64,000 nt of DNA from a virus. The DNA is taken from IMG/VR virus record IMGVR_UViG_3300015371_000028, positions 2,932 through 66,931 of that record; one strand, written 5' to 3'. Positions 27,375 through 48,411 of the stretch are shown here, one piece after another. The position numbers and the translations under genes are program-made. The stretch's first letter is position 1. Each line of letters opens with the position of its first letter. The notes below the pieces were generated by a model. It was not told where the DNA came from, searched no databases, and saw nothing but the letters and a program-made list of their open reading frames with translations.

Positions 27375-28580
27375 ATGAGCCGGAAGTTCTTAACGCCGAT
27401 TGATCTGGCGAAGAACGAACTCCAAAACGCGACGGTCGGCAATCTCGCCGCTGCTCCATCGTCGCCGGTGAAGGGGTTGCTCTACTTCAATTCTACGGAC
27501 AATACGTTGTATTGGTACAACGGGAGCACGTGGGTCGCAGCCCAAGGTGGCGCGGGCGCAACCCCCGCATCGACCGTCACGACCGCCGCAATCGGTGACG
27601 CGGCGGTCGTTGGCACCGGGGCCAACTTCGCCCGTGAAGACCATAAACACGGCATGCCTGCTTTTGGGACCGTGACCGCGCAGACTGCATTCGGAGCCGC
27701 CTCCGGAAGTGGTGCGAGTACCAGCATCGCGCGCACCGATCACACGCACGGCACCCCGACCCATCTGACCGCCGATCACAGTGCGGTCCTGCTCTCCGGT
27801 CTCGCGGCTCCCACCGCCGCCGTCAACATGAATAACCAGTTAGTGACCAACGTTGCGAATCCGGTCTCAGCCACCGATGCGGCCAACAAGAGCTATGTCG
27901 ATAACGCGGTGGCTGGGTTGTCATGGAAAGACACGGTGCGCGTCGCGACCACCGCCAATATCACGCTCTCCGCTGCGCAGACGATTGATGGCGTCAGTGC
28001 GGTCGTCGGTGATCGCGTCTTGGTCAAGAACCAAACCACCCAGTCAGCCAATGGTATCTACCTTGTCGCGGCAGGCGCATGGACCCGGACCACGGACGCA
28101 GATGTCGCGGCAGAACTGGAAGGGGCAGCGGTCTATGTGAACGAGGGCACCACCCAGGCGGATACCGCGTGGGTTATGACCGCGAACGCTCCGATTACTG
28201 TGGGCACCACGAACCTGACCTGGGTTCAGTTCGCGGGTGGTGGGACCGTGGTTGGCGGCGCTGGTCTGACCATGACCGGCAACACCCTCGATGTTGGGGC
28301 GGGAACCGGTATCAGTGTCGCGGCGGATACGGTCGCACTCGATACCACGTACTCAGATGCGCGCTATACACGCAAGTTCAGCCTCTCCGTCGGCGGCTCA
28401 GTCAGTTCGGTGGTGACGCATAATCTCAACAGCCGCGATGTGCTGGTCGATGTCTACCGGGTGGCGAGTCCGTTCGATACGGTTGACTGCGATGTGGAGC
28501 GCACGGACGCCAACAACGTCACGCTGCGGTTCACCGTCGCCCCGGCAGCGAGTGAATATCGCTGCGTGGTGGTGGGCTAA
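27375..28580 (+). CDS. Tail fibre protein
   Basis: DAANKSYVD, RVATTANITLS, GDRVLVKNQT and VTHNL motifs. Confidence 0.8.
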   Translation: MSRKFLTPIDLAKNELQNATVGNLAAAPSSPVKGLLYFNSTDNTLYWYNGSTWVAAQGGAGATPASTVTTAAIGDAAVVGTGANFAREDHKHGMPAFGTVTAQTAFGAASGSGASTSIARTDHTHGTPTHLTADHSAVLLSGLAAPTAAVNMNNQLVTNVANPVSATDAANKSYVDNAVAGLSWKDTVRVATTANITLSAAQTIDGVSAVVGDRVLVKNQTTQSANGIYLVAAGAWTRTTDADVAAELEGAAVYVNEGTTQADTAWVMTANAPITVGTTNLTWVQFAGGGTVVGGAGLTMTGNTLDVGAGTGISVAADTVALDTTYSDARYTRKFSLSVGGSVSSVVTHNLNSRDVLVDVYRVASPFDTVDCDVERTDANNVTLRFTVAPAASEYRCVVVG

Positions 28581-34272: not shown

Positions 34273-34469
34273 GCCTGATGAACTCCTTGGTCGTAGAGCG
34301 CTCGCTCGTCCTGACTTTCATGGAACGTAATGGCACAGGCTTTGTGGCCCATCGCGAGAATCATCTGCATCTCATGGAGTGCATCCTCCTTGTCCTGTTG
34401 CGCGGTGACGTGCCACGCTCCAGTCTCTTTGTCTTTCCAGACGACGAGAAAATACGTGCCGTTCGTCAT
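34269..34469 (-). CDS. Hypothetical protein
   Basis: ATGA overlaps on both sides. Confidence 0.55.
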   Translation of the reverse strand: MTNGTYFLVVWKDKETGAWHVTAQQDKEDALHEMQMILAMGHKACAITFHESQDERALYDQGVHQA

Positions 34470-35279: not shown

Positions 35280-36028
35280 GCCCTGACCTCTAGCAGATCG
35301 TCGTAGAGCGTGACCACGCTCGGCCACACATCGTCGGTGGGGAACGTGTGTCCATCCACGAGGCCGATCAGATTATTGAATTCGTGGCTGACCGAAAATC
35401 GCGGCGTGATGAGGCGATCTGGCCCCACCGTTTGTCGCATCATGACTTCGAGAAAATCGAGTTCGCCGCTGATTTCATGGCTTCGCTGCGGGAATGAGGC
35501 GATATTCGTGAACCGTTCGCTCTCGCTCAGGCGGTCCAGTTCCCGGCGCAACTGCACTTGCTTGCGCCGGGCTTCGTTCATTGCATCATCGTCGTGCTGA
35601 TGTACGAAATTCGTGTTGTACCAGTCCATCATCGCCGGACCGATCAACTTGTCTTCCAACGCGATGTGCAACGCCTTGCCGGTAAACTCGTTCCGCAATC
35701 GCTCGTAGAGGATCACAACGCGCTTCCGCTTGATGTCGATTGGCTCATCCGCCGTTCCCACCATCTTCGGGACCAACGGGATCATCTCCTGTCGGACCAA
35801 CTCCGGCGCGTTGTCATTGATGTAAATCCCGAAGCCCATCAGACTGTCATCGACACAGCGGGGCGAATCGCCCCACGGCAGATCGCACACCCAACTGACT
35901 GCTTCCATGACGCACATCTTGTAGTCGCGATTCCCACGACTCGGCGGGTTGTGAGCGCCCTGGTCGAGTTCGGTTACGCGTGCGAGTCGATAAGGGCTGA
36001 TTCCTTGCTCGTTCAGTATCAGCGGCAT
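35276..36028 (-). CDS. Hypothetical protein
   Basis: MCVMEAVSW..D.PRCV..IND motif of a recurrent phage family. Confidence 0.65.
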   Translation of the reverse strand: MPLILNEQGISPYRLARVTELDQGAHNPPSRGNRDYKMCVMEAVSWVCDLPWGDSPRCVDDSLMGFGIYINDNAPELVRQEMIPLVPKMVGTADEPIDIKRKRVVILYERLRNEFTGKALHIALEDKLIGPAMMDWYNTNFVHQHDDDAMNEARRKQVQLRRELDRLSESERFTNIASFPQRSHEISGELDFLEVMMRQTVGPDRLITPRFSVSHEFNNLIGLVDGHTFPTDDVWPSVVTLYDDLLEVRA

Positions 36029-38288: not shown

Positions 38289-38668
38289 TGCTGATCTTTG
38301 CGCAGATTCCGACGCATATCAGCGGCGCGTTTTGCGTCGATCATCGCTTTCGCTTGCGGTGCCTCGCCGTCAAGCATCATCACCCCCGGTTCGGCCTCAC
38401 TCGCGTCATAGAACGACACCAGGACATACGCGACCTGGCGTTCATCGAGTCCAGTTGTGTCGATGCAGACGAGTTTGAGGCCGTCTCCGACCGAGAGTCT
38501 TCCCAGGTGTCCTTCGAGCCACGGGTGTTCGGTCAGGTTGAAATGCCGTTCCACGAGTGCCCACCGGCCCGGTGTGCAACAGTGCATTGATCCTTCCTCG
38601 TGCTCGACTTTGGCTTGTTCTGCCGTGATGTCGGTGATGTGATCGTCATGCTGATCTGTCATTGTCAC
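38285..38668 (-). CDS. Hypothetical protein
   Basis: GAGG RBS; starts just after array A1. Confidence 0.55.
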   Translation of the reverse strand: MTMTDQHDDHITDITAEQAKVEHEEGSMHCCTPGRWALVERHFNLTEHPWLEGHLGRLSVGDGLKLVCIDTTGLDERQVAYVLVSFYDASEAEPGVMMLDGEAPQAKAMIDAKRAADMRRNLRKDQQ

Positions 38669-38685
38669 TACCTCGTCGAAGCAGG

Positions 38686-39010
38686 TTGCCCTGCCTTACC
38701 GCGCCAAGCCCTACCGGGCCATGCCATGCCTGGCCTCGCCTCGTCTCACCATGCCGAGCCATGCCATACCGAACCTAACCTAGCCATGCCCGACCGGGCC
38801 TTGCCTCACCGGACCTTGCCTCACCGGACCTTGCCAAGCCATACCTAGCCCTGCCTCACCCGACCTCACCAAACCGGGCCTCAGCGAACCGTGCCATACC
38901 CGATCACGCCTCACCGCACCGGTCCACACCGCTCCATGCCGTGCACGACCTAGCCATACCTTGTCGGACCCTGCCTTGCCATACCGCGCCACGCCAAGTC
39001 CGACCCTGCC
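38686..39010 (-). repeat. GGY-NN pentamer array A1 (65 units), candidate guide ncRNA
   Basis: Plus strand reads NN-RCC in exact 5-nt register with no indels; 57 of 65 units canonical by hand count. Confidence 0.92.
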
Positions 39011-39046
39011 TCGGTTGGCTCCCGGCTGCGCTATCACCTGCAACCG

Positions 39047-39111
39047 GAACCACGCCATGCCTTACCGTACCGGACCCTGCCTGACCGAGCCTTGCCCGAC
39101 CCCGCCACGCC
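39047..39111 (-). repeat. GGY-NN pentamer array A2 (13 units), candidate guide ncRNA
   Basis: 13 of 13 units canonical; begins 7 nt after the RAMP-like gene stop. Confidence 0.9.
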
Positions 39112-39118
39112 TTGATTT

Positions 39119-39760
39119 TTAAGGCTCTACTGCTATGGTGATTGCGGTTACTGAGAACCGACCGAATGTTGGCCTAAAATCGCACAACCCAACGAGCCGA
39201 CCGGCTTGGTTAATGAGATGGGTCATCACGGGCAACGGTAGATATTCCGGTGTCGTGATCAACAACTCGAACGTCAACTGCCAACCCTCACGCATTGCGG
39301 GGCGAACGCGGGTGATACCGTTTCGCTGAACGGTCACACGACGACTATCCTCATAATCCCAACTCGCCGTCTTCGGTTGGAATTGAGCCACCACATCAAG
39401 CGCGATCACCCCGGCTTTTGCGAGGTCAAACGCGCTCTTGCGCGGCGATCTTGGGTCTTGCATGAACTTCGCGCTTTGCTGAATCGACGCTGCGAAGTTT
39501 TGCCCAGGAACACCGAGATAACCATCGGCATCCCGGTAGACATAACTTTCCAAGTCATCGGATTTCTTCGCCTTCGACCCTTTGGCTGCTGCTGCTTTCC
39601 CGGCCACTGATGCGACGTTCCAGGCGTGAAACAGCAACGGACTCACCCCGATGATACTGGCGGTGAGTCGGTACGGTTGTCCTTGAACAATGCTATCTGA
39701 GCCACCGTTCGTGACTTGTTGCTCATCAACTGCGAGTTTCTGATCTGCTGCTACAGGCAT
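39119..39760 (-). CDS. Stand-alone Cas7/RAMP-like protein
   Basis: IIGVSPLLFH first strand, GYLGVPGQNFAASI helix start, R.RP..W.LTF, and C-terminal Gly-rich loop AG..VGLCDFRPTFGRF; GAAAGGA RBS. Confidence 0.75.
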   Translation of the reverse strand: MPVAADQKLAVDEQQVTNGGSDSIVQGQPYRLTASIIGVSPLLFHAWNVASVAGKAAAAKGSKAKKSDDLESYVYRDADGYLGVPGQNFAASIQQSAKFMQDPRSPRKSAFDLAKAGVIALDVVAQFQPKTASWDYEDSRRVTVQRNGITRVRPAMREGWQLTFELLITTPEYLPLPVMTHLINQAGRLVGLCDFRPTFGRFSVTAITIAVEP

Positions 39761-39791
39761 TCCCCGTTCCTTTCATAACCTCGCCACAAAA

Positions 39792-39971
39792 AAACCACGC
39801 CATGCCCTGTCTTACCGTGCCGGACCGCGCCGGACCGAACCGCGCCAGACCGTGCCATGCCTCGCCTCGCCTTGCCGGGCTTGACCTTGGCTCACCGGGC
39901 CTCGCCTCACCAGACCATGCCTCGCCTGACCTAGCCTGGGCATACCAAGCCTCGCCCTGTTATGTCATGCC
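39792..39971 (-). repeat. GGY-NN pentamer array B (36 units), candidate guide ncRNA
   Basis: 30 of 36 units canonical; starts at the upstream stop codon and ends in a T8 tract on the minus strand. Confidence 0.92.
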
Positions 39972-40225
39972 TTTCCACCTCCTCGCTTAATCGCGTCGGC
40001 AATTCGTGATAAGAAGCGATCTGGATATTTATCTGGTGCCCCTAAGAGGTCGTGATAATGAATTAGCTCAGAAATAAAGTCCTCACGGTCATCGGGATCG
40101 AGCCGTGCCCAATAGCCGATCAGAATCTCGCGCAACTCGTGGTTCGTCATATTGCGCAATCGGCAACGTACGAGATTGTTAGAACGTGTGTAACTTAACT
40201 CAACCGCAACTTCTGGCTTGTCCAT
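39965..40225 (-). CDS. Small hypothetical protein linked to the RAMP/array locus
   Basis: 86 aa, AAGGGG RBS, AT-rich codons; matched by array B. Confidence 0.65.
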   Translation of the reverse strand: MDKPEVAVELSYTRSNNLVRCRLRNMTNHELREILIGYWARLDPDDREDFISELIHYHDLLGAPDKYPDRFLSRIADAIKRGGGKA

Positions 40226-40231
40226 TGCCCC

Positions 40232-40642
40232 TTACCACTCCAATTGGAATTCCCGGTGCTGGATCGCGGCTCCCGCAATCACCAGGGAGAAGAATTCCCG
40301 GACACCGATGGTGATGGTGCCGTCGAGGTCATCGCCTTTGACTTCCCCGTTTAAGGTCAGGTTATTGCCCTCAACATCAACGTCTGCGGCCCAATTGCTG
40401 CCCGCGACGAAGATGTGATCGTTCTCGATGTTCAGCATCACGGTGAACGCACCAACGCGCCAGGAAATGTGATGCGGTTCAATCACGCGGGCGTTCATCT
40501 CCGCGTCCGTGGTTCCGTACACGATCTGGGCTGCTTTCAGTAACCGTGCTGCTGCATCAGCGGCGTGCGTTAGTCCCGGTGTCAGTTGACTCGACACAAT
40601 GTTGGTCCCCCAAGGACGAGCTACCGGTGGCGTCATGGTCAT
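40232..40642 (-). CDS. Hypothetical protein
   Basis: First gene of the leftward block; start uncertain. Confidence 0.55.
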   Translation of the reverse strand: MTMTPPVARPWGTNIVSSQLTPGLTHAADAAARLLKAAQIVYGTTDAEMNARVIEPHHISWRVGAFTVMLNIENDHIFVAGSNWAADVDVEGNNLTLNGEVKGDDLDGTITIGVREFFSLVIAGAAIQHREFQLEW

Positions 40643-48096: not shown

Positions 48097-48411
48097 GGTG
48101 TGCCGAGGCATGGCTCGGCAAGGCGGGACATGGCGGGGTTTGGCAGGGCATGGTATGGCCGGGCGTGCTCCGGTCAGGCGAGGCATGGTTTGGCCCGGTT
48201 TGGCGCGCTCCGGTTAGGCGAGTCGTGGTACGGCGAGGCAAGGTCAGGCGAGGCAAGGTCAGGCGAGGCGCGGCGCGGTCAGGTCTGGTGAGGCAAGGCG
48301 GGACGTGGTGCGGGAAGGCGAGGTCCGCTGAGTTGGGGCTTGGTTAGGCACGGCAAGGCTCGGCTCGGTAGTGCGTGGTAGGGCGGGGTATGACATGGCA
48401 TGGTGAGGCCG
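48097..48411 (+). repeat. GGY-NN pentamer array C (63 units), candidate guide ncRNA
   Basis: 52 of 63 units canonical, exact register, intergenic, GGY on the locally transcribed + strand. Confidence 0.92.

What the first reader, a model, noticed from the sequence alone, without database searches (positions are those of the whole stretch)
39062..39196. Array A2 dinucleotides spell the RAMP gene's own Gly-loop codons, skipping every third base
Seen: the plus-strand NN of units 39062-39113 read TT GT GG CT TG GA TT CG CC AC TT (the last TT lies just outside the final unit). The gene's codons at 39196-39164 are CTC GTT GGG TTG TGC GAT TTT AGG CCA ACA TTC (LVGLCDFRPTF). Eight of 11 dinucleotides equal codon positions 1-2. 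The three mismatches are single bases at Leu (TT/CT), Leu (CT/TT) and Arg (CG/AG), all compatible with synonymous swaps. The array RNA would be gapped-antisense to the coding strand. Inference: the code is 'pair two, skip one' in register with wobble positions. The guide would hit the most conserved motif of a rival's homologous effector, while this phage escapes through first-position synonymous codons (TTG, AGG) that look atypical for this GC-rich genome. Attenuated autoregulation is an alternative.
Basis: partly seen in the sequence, partly recalled or inferred. Interest (0 to 1): 0.95.

Follow-up and report, generated by a model that had tools for sequence, protein, structure and literature searches.

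The report
VIPR guide RNA aimed at vipr
The repeat array next to this phage gene is a guide RNA of the recently described VIPR system, and its variable letters spell the most conserved part of the VIPR protein gene itself, so it is probably a weapon against rival phages that carry the same system.

Summary
The 11 variable dinucleotides of array A2 match positions 1-2 of codons L189-F199 of the adjacent gene in 19 of 22 bases. All three mismatches are Leu/Leu/Arg codon-family switches. It is the best gapped match in the whole window, and no shuffle reached its codon-compatible score (0 of 100).

The kind is already in print. The locus is a VIPR system, a Vipr RAMP protein plus GGY/NN vrRNAs that read DNA by a "1-nt skip" rule aligned to wobble positions (bioRxiv 10.64898/2026.04.26.720920). 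The protein folds like Cas7 and aligns to SUSP1 Vipr (98% probability). The targeted peptide is the G-loop that reads GGY.

In about 160 related loci the skip rule gives 207 exact 8-unit hits against 2 expected, and none is a self hit.

A2 is most likely an anti-vipr guide. It scores 20-21/22 on other vipr genes, and no perfect target was found. The 86% self-match is unusual: it is the only score of 19/22 or more in 132 loci. Self-escape by synonymous recoding is plausible but untested, and autoregulation is not excluded.

The scan has met VIPR on other DNA many times (474 findings hold the search words).

The parts
39119..39760 (-). vipr gene: 213-aa stand-alone RAMP (Cas7-like) protein, phrog_4652
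   Evidence: ORF. PHROG hit E 1.7e-19 and no Pfam hit. AlphaFold2 model with pLDDT 82.6. Foldseek top hits are Cas7/Csm3 of type VII and III-A complexes, E 2e-6, TM about 0.5. hhalign to the SUSP1 195-aa protein gives 98% probability, E 1.8e-13.
39164..39196 (-). Near-target of vrRNA A2: codons L189-F199 (LVGLCDFRPTF), the G-loop of Vipr. Paired bases span 39165-39196.
   Evidence: 19/22 bases matched. This is the most conserved block of the family: D194, R196 and P197 are invariant and C193 nearly so. It aligns with SUSP1 C173/D177/W178/R179, which contact the GGY bases.
39060..39114 (-). vrRNA A2, units 1-11 (YNNGG): the variable guide part that matches the vipr G-loop codons in antisense
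   Evidence: The NN on the RNA strand read AA GT GG CG AA TC CA AG CC AC AA.
39048..39061 (-). Last two repeat units plus TT: a 14-nt element shared exactly by the 3' ends of A2 and array B and not part of the target match. Candidate start of the 3' handle.
   Evidence: There are two perfect copies in the window, at 39048-39061 and 39793-39806.
39022..39047 (-). 8-bp hairpin (one G-U pair) directly after the repeat tract: candidate vrRNA 3' tail
   Evidence: RNA fold of 38990-39125. The region z-score is only -2.0. There is no Rfam match.
38686..39010 (-). Array A1: 65 further GGY-NN units downstream, with no target found
39792..39966 (-). Array B: 35 units between orf86 and vipr. Its first 18 units near-match the phage's own orf86.
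39965..40225 (-). orf86: 86-aa gene upstream of array B, a possible accessory (vap-like) gene of unknown family
   Evidence: No Pfam or PHROG hit. No homologue in the fetched loci. Residues 51-68 are near-matched by array B at 28/36 bases.
48105..48410 (+). Array C: 62 GGY-NN units on the + strand, 8 kb away

Best explanation
The locus is a VIPR system. The 213-aa gene is vipr. Array A2 encodes one vrRNA: 13 YNNGG units and then a hairpin tail, transcribed in the same direction as vipr (inferred).

Vipr protomers bind the GGY bases, one protomer per unit, and present the NN pairs. These pair with DNA two bases at a time and skip every third base. This mechanism was shown for SUSP1 and P. fulva in the preprints and is inferred here by homology.

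Decoded by that rule, units 1-11 of A2 specify the coding-strand sequence of the Vipr G-loop (L189-F199). The guide-specified codons encode exactly the same peptide as the phage's own gene.

The most likely role is to silence the vipr genes of competing phages at a site they cannot change without losing guide-RNA binding. The phage's own gene differs from the guide at three first-codon positions (CTC, TTG and AGG against guide TT, CT and CG). Two of these are internal to the guide. This may lower self-binding without changing the protein (inferred, untested).
For: System identity:
- 72 of 80 viral loci and 67 of 80 genome loci that encode a homologue carry period-5 GG arrays on the gene's coding strand.
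- The unit consensus is G 92%, G 85%, Y 87%, N, N.
- The fold is Cas7-like.
- hhalign to SUSP1 Vipr gives 98% probability, and the RNA-contact residues are conserved as H45, R153, D194, F195 and R196.

The code works in this family:
- 207 exact 8-unit gapped seed hits between arrays and non-array DNA of the loci, against a mean of 2.0 in 20 shuffles.
- 159 seeds remain on 130 diagonals after dropping the loci that were fetched with the guide pattern. None is a self hit. All 7 diagonals inside vipr genes put the skipped base on the wobble position.

This guide:
- It is the best hit in the window and is 11/11 codon-compatible, with 0 of 100 shuffles at 10/11 or better.
- All 24 hits of 19/22 or more made by this locus's guides in 907 kb of related loci are A2 on the vipr G-loop. 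The null at 19 or more is 0 in 5 shuffles.
- L106, the closest relative with DNA available (70% identity), matches 9 consecutive inner units perfectly and scores 20/22. L095 scores 21/22.

Parallels:
- Guides in L070 and L065 hit another conserved vipr motif at 22/22 and 21/22 in other loci, but only 18/22 and 16/22 in their own gene.
- Vipr-targeting guides are in print.
- At two of the three mismatches the guide follows the majority codon family of homologues and the phage's own gene the minority: CGN 56 against AGR 12 at the Arg, and CTC/CTG/CTT 32 against TTG 4 at the second Leu.
Against: - No perfect 11-unit target exists in viral contigs or metagenome contigs. The 9-unit core has 0 hits in viral contigs and only 4 vipr hits among 23 in metagenome contigs.
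- The phage's own gene (19/22) matches as well as most homologues (15-21/22). The margin between self and rival is only 1-2 bases.
- 19/22 is 86%, above the 80% cut-off by which the preprints call natural targets. They report no self hit at that level in three clades.
- At the first Leu the guide has the minority family: TTR 16 against CTN 47.
- TTG is 20% of Leu codons in this phage, so it is not an unusual codon.
- Family-wide recoding is weak. TTR/Leu is 22.6% in vipr genes against 15.4% in neighbouring genes. AGR/Arg is equal at 10.7% against 10.8%.
- AGR at R196 is 18%, against 7-15% at the other conserved Arg sites.
- Expression and processing of A2 were not tested.
- The effect of mismatches on VIPR binding is not given in the main texts I read. 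The word 'mismatch' has 0 occurrences in the structure preprint.
Confidence: 0.6

Rival explanations
1. Attenuated autoregulation. A2 binds the phage's own vipr 3' end weakly. From there it dampens read-through into the downstream vrRNA arrays, or vipr expression itself, as a negative feedback loop.
For: The self-match is 86%, above the preprints' 80% target threshold. It is the highest own-locus score among 132 non-redundant loci. The site lies 50-80 nt upstream of A2 itself, on the same transcription path. Array B likewise near-matches the phage's own orf86 at 28/36 bases, with 0 of 500 shuffles as good.
Against: The feature is not conserved. In 68 related loci the best match of any guide to its own G-loop codons is 13/22. 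No other locus reaches 19/22 against its own DNA. The other two anti-vipr guides match foreign genes better than their own. Some foreign genes match A2 better than the phage's own gene does. All mismatches are silent, which fits selection to keep the protein while lowering pairing.
Confidence: 0.25
2. Relic guide. A2 was once matched to a vipr allele, its own or a rival's. The guide or the gene has since drifted, so it has no present function on vipr.
For: No perfect target was found. One mismatch is on the guide side, against the family majority. Arrays in this family are long and turn over fast: L106 carries a different guide at the same place.
Against: The guide still encodes the exact peptide across all 11 units. 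Random drift would also hit non-degenerate positions. It keeps 20-21/22 on several homologues.
Confidence: 0.1
3. Chance resemblance between a 22-base code and the neighbouring gene.
For: Unit-order shuffles reach 19/22 somewhere in the 64-kb window in 16 of 300.
Against: The hit lies in the adjacent gene, spans exactly the variable units of one vrRNA, and falls in codon register with the skipped base on wobble. It is 11/11 codon-compatible, with 0 of 100 shuffles at 10/11 or better. The same rule gives about a 100-fold excess of hits across related loci.
Confidence: 0.03

Closest known systems
VIPR systems, reference type II of Escherichia phage SUSP1 and the P. fulva prophage (bioRxiv 10.64898/2026.04.26.720920; structures in 10.64898/2026.04.26.720927)
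   Same: Both have a small stand-alone RAMP protein, with the G-loop, thumb and beta-sheet contact residues conserved. Both have GGY/NN pentamer vrRNAs on the gene's strand, upstream and downstream. Both recognise targets with a 1-nt skip aligned to wobble positions, and both target other mobile elements, including other VIPR systems.
   Different: The protein is only about 27% identical over the hhalign match, and tblastn did not find SUSP1. The arrays here are long and almost uninterrupted (65, 35 and 62 units), rather than discrete vrRNAs each followed by a pseudoknot tail (compare). The neighbouring 86-aa gene is not a recognisable vap. I could not assign the VIPR type, because the classification rests on figures and supplements that I could not see.
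vipr-targeting solo vrRNAs of VIPR-null SUSP1-family phages (bioRxiv 10.64898/2026.10.15.759431, section 8 and Discussion read)
   Same: [quoted passage not shown] They are wobble-aligned and target protein-determining bases that cannot change freely.
   Different: Those phages have lost vipr and so have no self to protect. Here the guide sits in a VIPR-positive phage, directly after its own vipr, and matches that gene at 86%. The June preprint does mention VIPR-positive prophages whose vrRNAs target other VIPR systems, but the details are in fig. S15 and data S3, which I could not see.
Class 1 CRISPR Cas7 backbone with crRNA
   Same: Both use an RRM/RAMP protomer with a thumb that interrupts guide-target pairing periodically, and both form a filament along the guide. 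These are the Foldseek top hits.
   Different: There are no CRISPR repeats or spacers, no cas1 or cas2, and no other cas genes. The period is 5 nt of RNA for 3 nt of DNA, instead of 6 for 6.

Membership tests
VIPR (Vipr + vrRNA) | Small stand-alone RAMP protein homologous to characterised Vipr | tested here: met
   Foldseek gives Cas7/Csm3 hits at E 2e-6. hhalign of the family alignment A1 to the SUSP1 195-aa ORF (NC_028808 28474-29061, minus strand) gives 98% probability and E 1.8e-13 over 172 columns. I identified that ORF as Vipr because its C173, D177, W178, R179, H17 and R138 are the residues named in the structure preprint.
VIPR (Vipr + vrRNA) | Residues that read the GGY bases (beta-sheet His, thumb Arg, G-loop Asp-aromatic-Arg) | tested here: met
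   H45, R153, D194, F195 and R196 align to SUSP1 H17, R138, D177, W178 and R179. H45, R153, D194 and R196 are invariant in 28 homologues.
VIPR (Vipr + vrRNA) | Tandem YNNGG/GGYNN repeats with variable NN on the gene's strand, flanking vipr | tested here: met
   In the window. In 72 of 80 viral loci and 67 of 80 genome loci. Positional composition.
VIPR (Vipr + vrRNA) | Discrete vrRNA of 9-16 repeats followed by a structured 3' tail | tested here: inconclusive
   A2 has 13 units followed by an 8-bp hairpin. The tail is not shown to be conserved, and A1, B and C are much longer tracts. Neither expression nor RNA ends were tested, and no RNA holder was listed.
VIPR (Vipr + vrRNA) | NN strings match foreign DNA under the 1-nt skip rule, with the skip on wobble and no self targets | tested here: met
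   207 seed hits against 2.0 in the null. There are 0 self seeds, and 7 of 7 hits inside vipr genes put the skip on wobble. The exception is this window's 19/22 near-self match.
VIPR (Vipr + vrRNA) | Accessory vap gene next to vipr | tested here: inconclusive
   orf86 has no Pfam or PHROG hit and no homologue in the fetched loci.
VIPR (Vipr + vrRNA) | RNA-guided dsDNA binding and transcriptional silencing | not testable with these tools
   Shown for SUSP1 and P. fulva only.
CRISPR-Cas (class 1) | Repeat-spacer array and further cas genes | tested here: not met
   No such array appears among the tandem repeats. There is no Rfam hit in 38400-40400. The neighbouring ORFs have no cas families.

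The most novel reading that the evidence does not exclude
A VIPR-positive phage aims a guide at the G-loop codons of vipr, the very part of the protein that reads guide RNAs. It protects its own copy only by switching codon family at six-fold-degenerate residues (Leu CTN/TTR, Arg CGN/AGR).

This would be a silent self/non-self mark. It would also be a loophole in the published argument that skipping the wobble base makes synonymous escape impossible.

The word 'synonymous' occurs only in the wobble or non-synonymous sense in the two preprints I searched. Only four papers in the library hold the word vrRNA.
Probability: 0.35. Interest if true: 0.55.

Novelty: new member of a known kind. Interest (0 to 1): 0.35.

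Why it matters
The system and its gapped code were published in 2026, so the finding does not reveal a new mechanism. It does show that the code can be read from raw sequence.

It adds one concrete case that the preprints' main texts do not describe: a guide in a VIPR-positive phage that matches the phage's own vipr gene at 86%, with all differences silent. If the three silent changes are enough to prevent self-silencing, they give a simple, testable rule for mismatch tolerance and self-immunity in VIPR. They would also show that Leu, Arg and Ser codons are weak points of wobble-skipping guides. This matters both for phage-phage conflict and for designing VIPR tools.

Tried and rejected
I therefore could not fetch the DNA of the closest homologues (P0002-P0012, 70-79% identical), which would be the best place to look for a perfect target.

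Searches that found no relative. A single-protein scan of viral contigs and of genome contigs found no relative.

Pattern searches. The full pattern has 0 hits in viral contigs and metagenome contigs. The 9-unit core has 0 hits in viral contigs.

Own-motif test in relatives. No other locus has a guide against its own G-loop codons. The best is 13/22 among 68 loci, and 3 of 69 reach p<0.05, counting the window.

Own-locus scan. 7 of 68 loci reach p<=0.05 and 5 of 64 do. This is no clear excess.

Family-wide recoding. The evidence is weak or mixed.

Other blanks. Rfam has no match in 38400-40400. The terminator scan found none. No RNA holder was listed. The laid contigs showed no variant at the guide or at the target. 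Neither orf86 nor its two neighbouring ORFs has a homologue in the fetched loci.

Not done. I did not fold or search orf86, did not look for targets of arrays A1 and C beyond, and did not assign a VIPR type. Supplements were not opened; data S3 and fig. S15 of 10.64898/2026.04.26.720920 and the tables of 10.64898/2026.10.15.759431 may already list guides like this one.

Script errors.
- crashed with a KeyError and was redone.
- read some vipr genes out of frame. Its numbers are discarded and were redone.
- The shuffle part summed booleans wrongly. It is discarded and was redone.

Full report
WHAT IS THERE. The window is a 64-kb part of a 66.9-kb uncultivated virus record with 58.7% G+C.

A 213-aa ORF on the minus strand (39119-39760) is flanked by gap-free period-5 arrays whose minus strand reads GGY-NN:
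- B, upstream: 39792-39966, 35 units.
- A2: 39047-39116.
- A1: 38686-39010, 65 units.
- C, on the plus strand: 48105-48410, 62 units.

Read on the gene's strand, A2 starts five bases after the stop codon. It has 13 YNNGG units, then TT, then an 8-bp hairpin. Its last two units plus TT form a 14-base element. That element recurs exactly once more in the window, at the 3' end of array B.

THE OBSERVATION. The match is 19 of 22 bases and 8 of 11 dinucleotides. The three mismatches are first-position bases of Leu189, Leu192 and Arg196. The matched units are units 1-11 of the vrRNA. The two unmatched units belong to the shared 3' element.

I scanned all 136 eleven-unit windows of the four arrays against both strands and all frames of the window, 17.4 million comparisons. 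This hit is the single best. Shuffling unit order gives 19 or more somewhere in the window in 16 of 300 trials, so the raw score alone is only borderline.

Three further facts make chance unlikely:
- The hit lies in the adjacent gene.
- The hit is in codon register, with the skipped base on wobble.
- Every guide dinucleotide can encode the residue it faces (11/11). No shuffle reached even 10/11 (0 of 100).

WHAT THE GENE IS.
- It has no Pfam family, and phrog_4652 has unknown function.
- The protein database holds 6775 homologues.
- An AlphaFold2 model (pLDDT 82.6) matches Cas7/Csm3 subunits of type VII and III-A complexes (E 2e-6, TM about 0.5).
- The most conserved block of the family is the C-terminal AGRLVGLCDFRPTYGRF.

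THE LITERATURE. A full-text search found three 2026 preprints. I read the following parts.

10.64898/2026.04.26.720920: Results, Discussion and three Methods sections. It describes VIPR systems.
- A phage-borne ancestral RAMP, Vipr, works with vrRNAs of 9-16 YNNGG repeats and a 3' tail.
- The NN pairs recognise double-stranded DNA with one skipped base per unit.
- The skip usually falls on codon wobble positions, and targets lie on either strand.
- No self hit at 80% NN match or more was found in three clades.

10.64898/2026.04.26.720927: passages only. One protomer binds one repeat. The G-loop residues D177, W178 and R179, with H17 and R138, hold the GGY bases.

10.64898/2026.10.15.759431: outline, section 8, one Methods section and passages. 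[quoted passage not shown] It argues that escape needs changes at amino-acid-determining positions.

MEMBERSHIP. I fetched SUSP1. A 195-aa ORF there is flanked by GGY arrays with repeated tails. The family alignment matches that ORF at 98% probability. The contact residues align to H45, R153, D194, F195 and R196 of the window's protein. The neighbouring SUSP1 gene does not match.

The peptide that A2 spells is therefore the G-loop that reads the GGY motif.

THE CODE IN THIS FAMILY. I fetched 80 viral loci and 80 genome loci, many from Phycisphaerae and other Planctomycetota MAGs.
- 72 and 67 of them carry GG-phased period-5 arrays on the gene's strand.
- Exact 8-unit gapped seeds between arrays and non-array DNA number 207, against a mean of 2.0 in 20 shuffles.
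- After removing the 23 loci that had been fetched with A2's own pattern, 159 seeds remain on 130 diagonals from 31 guide positions.
- None of these is a self hit. 122 diagonals fall in the flanking genes of other loci and 7 fall in vipr genes. All 7 have the skip on wobble.
- Near-identical loci inflate these counts. The number of distinct guide positions, 31, is the safer figure.

IS A2 AN ANTI-VIPR GUIDE? Against 130 unique vipr genes, only three guides reach 20/22: A2 of this window and one guide each in L070 and L065. The null is 0 in 3 shuffles.
- The L070 guide is 22/22 on L038 and 18/22 on its own gene.
- The L065 guide is 21/22 on others and 16/22 on its own gene.
- Both spell the conserved KKTDD-ESYVY block, and in both cases the locus's own gene differs in amino acids.

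A2 scores 19/22 or more on about 18 vipr genes, and all 24 such hits of this locus's guides are at the G-loop. It scores 20/22 on L106, the closest relative with DNA available, where the nine inner units are perfect and only the two end units mismatch. It scores 21/22 on L095. On its own gene the longest perfect run is three units.

Results against this reading:
- The full 11-unit pattern has no exact hit in viral contigs or metagenome contigs.
- The 9-unit core has none in viral contigs and 23 in metagenome contigs. Of those, 4 are vipr genes, 13 are an unrelated gene encoding VGLCEFRPTQ, and 6 are other sequences.
- The own-gene score equals that of many homologues, so the self/rival margin is 1-2 bases.
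- 19/22 is 86%, which the preprints' criterion would call a target.

THE ESCAPE IDEA. In homologues the Arg codon is CGN in 56 and AGR in 12 of 68. The second Leu is CTC, CTG or CTT in 32 and TTG in 4. The first Leu is CTN in 47 and TTR in 16. Four of those 68 sequences had been fetched by the pattern itself. So the phage's own gene is the odd one at two sites, and the guide is the odd one at the third.

In this phage TTG is 20.1% of 1491 Leu codons, so it is not atypical. AGG is 3.7% of 1367 Arg codons, and it is the only AGG among the 13 Arg codons of vipr.

Family-wide evidence is mixed:
- vipr genes use TTR for Leu somewhat more often than neighbouring ORFs do (22.6% against 15.4%, paired p = 0.007, equal GC3).
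- AGR for Arg is no more frequent (10.7% against 10.8%).
- AGR at R196 is 18%, against 7-15% at the other conserved Arg sites.

These figures are compatible with escape by silent recoding but do not show it.

AUTOREGULATION. The self near-match is the highest among 132 non-redundant loci. The others reach at most 18/22. No relative has a guide against its own G-loop codons (best 13/22). A conserved feedback loop is therefore unlikely, but a lineage-specific one is not excluded.

Array B adds a second near-self match. Its first 18 units equal positions 1-2 of codons 51-68 of orf86 in 28 of 36 bases, in sense polarity. 14 of the 18 units are codon-compatible, and 0 of 500 shuffles did as well. 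Both guides next to vipr thus spell genes of their own cassette imperfectly. This fits guides aimed at sister cassettes.

VERDICT. Self-escape by silent codon-family switches is a reasonable hypothesis, not yet in print as far as my searches go, and untested.

The system is a new member of a known kind. The scan has reported VIPR loci on other DNA many times: 474 findings hold the search words, in at least 365 genomes. One of them is an orphan guide against vipr.

Noticed in passing
window 39877-39966 (array B) and 40022-40075 (orf86): The first 18 units of array B, read on the RNA strand, equal positions 1-2 of orf86 codons 51-68 in 28 of 36 bases (11 units exact, 14 codon-compatible). The polarity is sense, so the guide would pair with the template strand. 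No shuffle out of 500 reached this score in the 1.6-kb neighbourhood.
   Followed up: partly
window 38793-39893: In run X1 a 29-kb contig (depth 11.5) joins 38792 directly to 39894. This skips 1101 bases holding vipr, A2 and parts of A1 and B. Short contigs of depth 2-5 in the same run carry the vipr form without differences. This looks like a vipr-less variant that keeps a fused array, reminiscent of the 1,114-bp vipr-vap1 deletion reported for SUSP1-like phages. An assembly artefact is not excluded.
   Followed up: no
L070:2833-2968 and L065:2821-2991: Two other loci of the family carry guides that spell the conserved KKTDD-ESYVY block of vipr genes. They score 22/22 and 21/22 on foreign genes but 18/22 and 16/22 on their own gene, where the own gene differs in amino acids.
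   Followed up: partly
L001-L185, flanks of vipr: Most cross-locus guide hits (122 of 130 diagonals) fall in genes upstream or downstream of vipr in other loci, not in vipr itself. One example is the L111 guide, which hits a site about 1.5 kb upstream of vipr in some 20 loci. I did not identify the target genes.
   Followed up: no
L081-L103 (metagenome contigs): The 9-unit core of the A2 code also matches an unrelated, conserved gene encoding ...VGLCEFRPTQSIGSGHAMGY in 13 contigs, several from gut metagenomes. This is probably a chance peptide resemblance.
   Followed up: no
window 48105-48410 (array C) against 34381-34412 and 35766-35797: Array C's best own-window matches are 18/22 at two sites 13 kb away. 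About 0.75 hits of 18 or more are expected per window scan, so these may be chance.
   Followed up: no
window 39048-39061 and 39793-39806: An identical 14-base element ends both A2 and B. B then runs into a T7 tract before the vipr start, and A2 runs into a hairpin. It is possibly a processing or handle element for this clade.
   Followed up: partly
L186 (SUSP1) 27480-28040: The SUSP1 record annotates both the 195-aa Vipr and the 146-aa neighbour as hypothetical proteins. It leaves the three downstream vrRNAs, with their repeated tails, unannotated.
   Followed up: no
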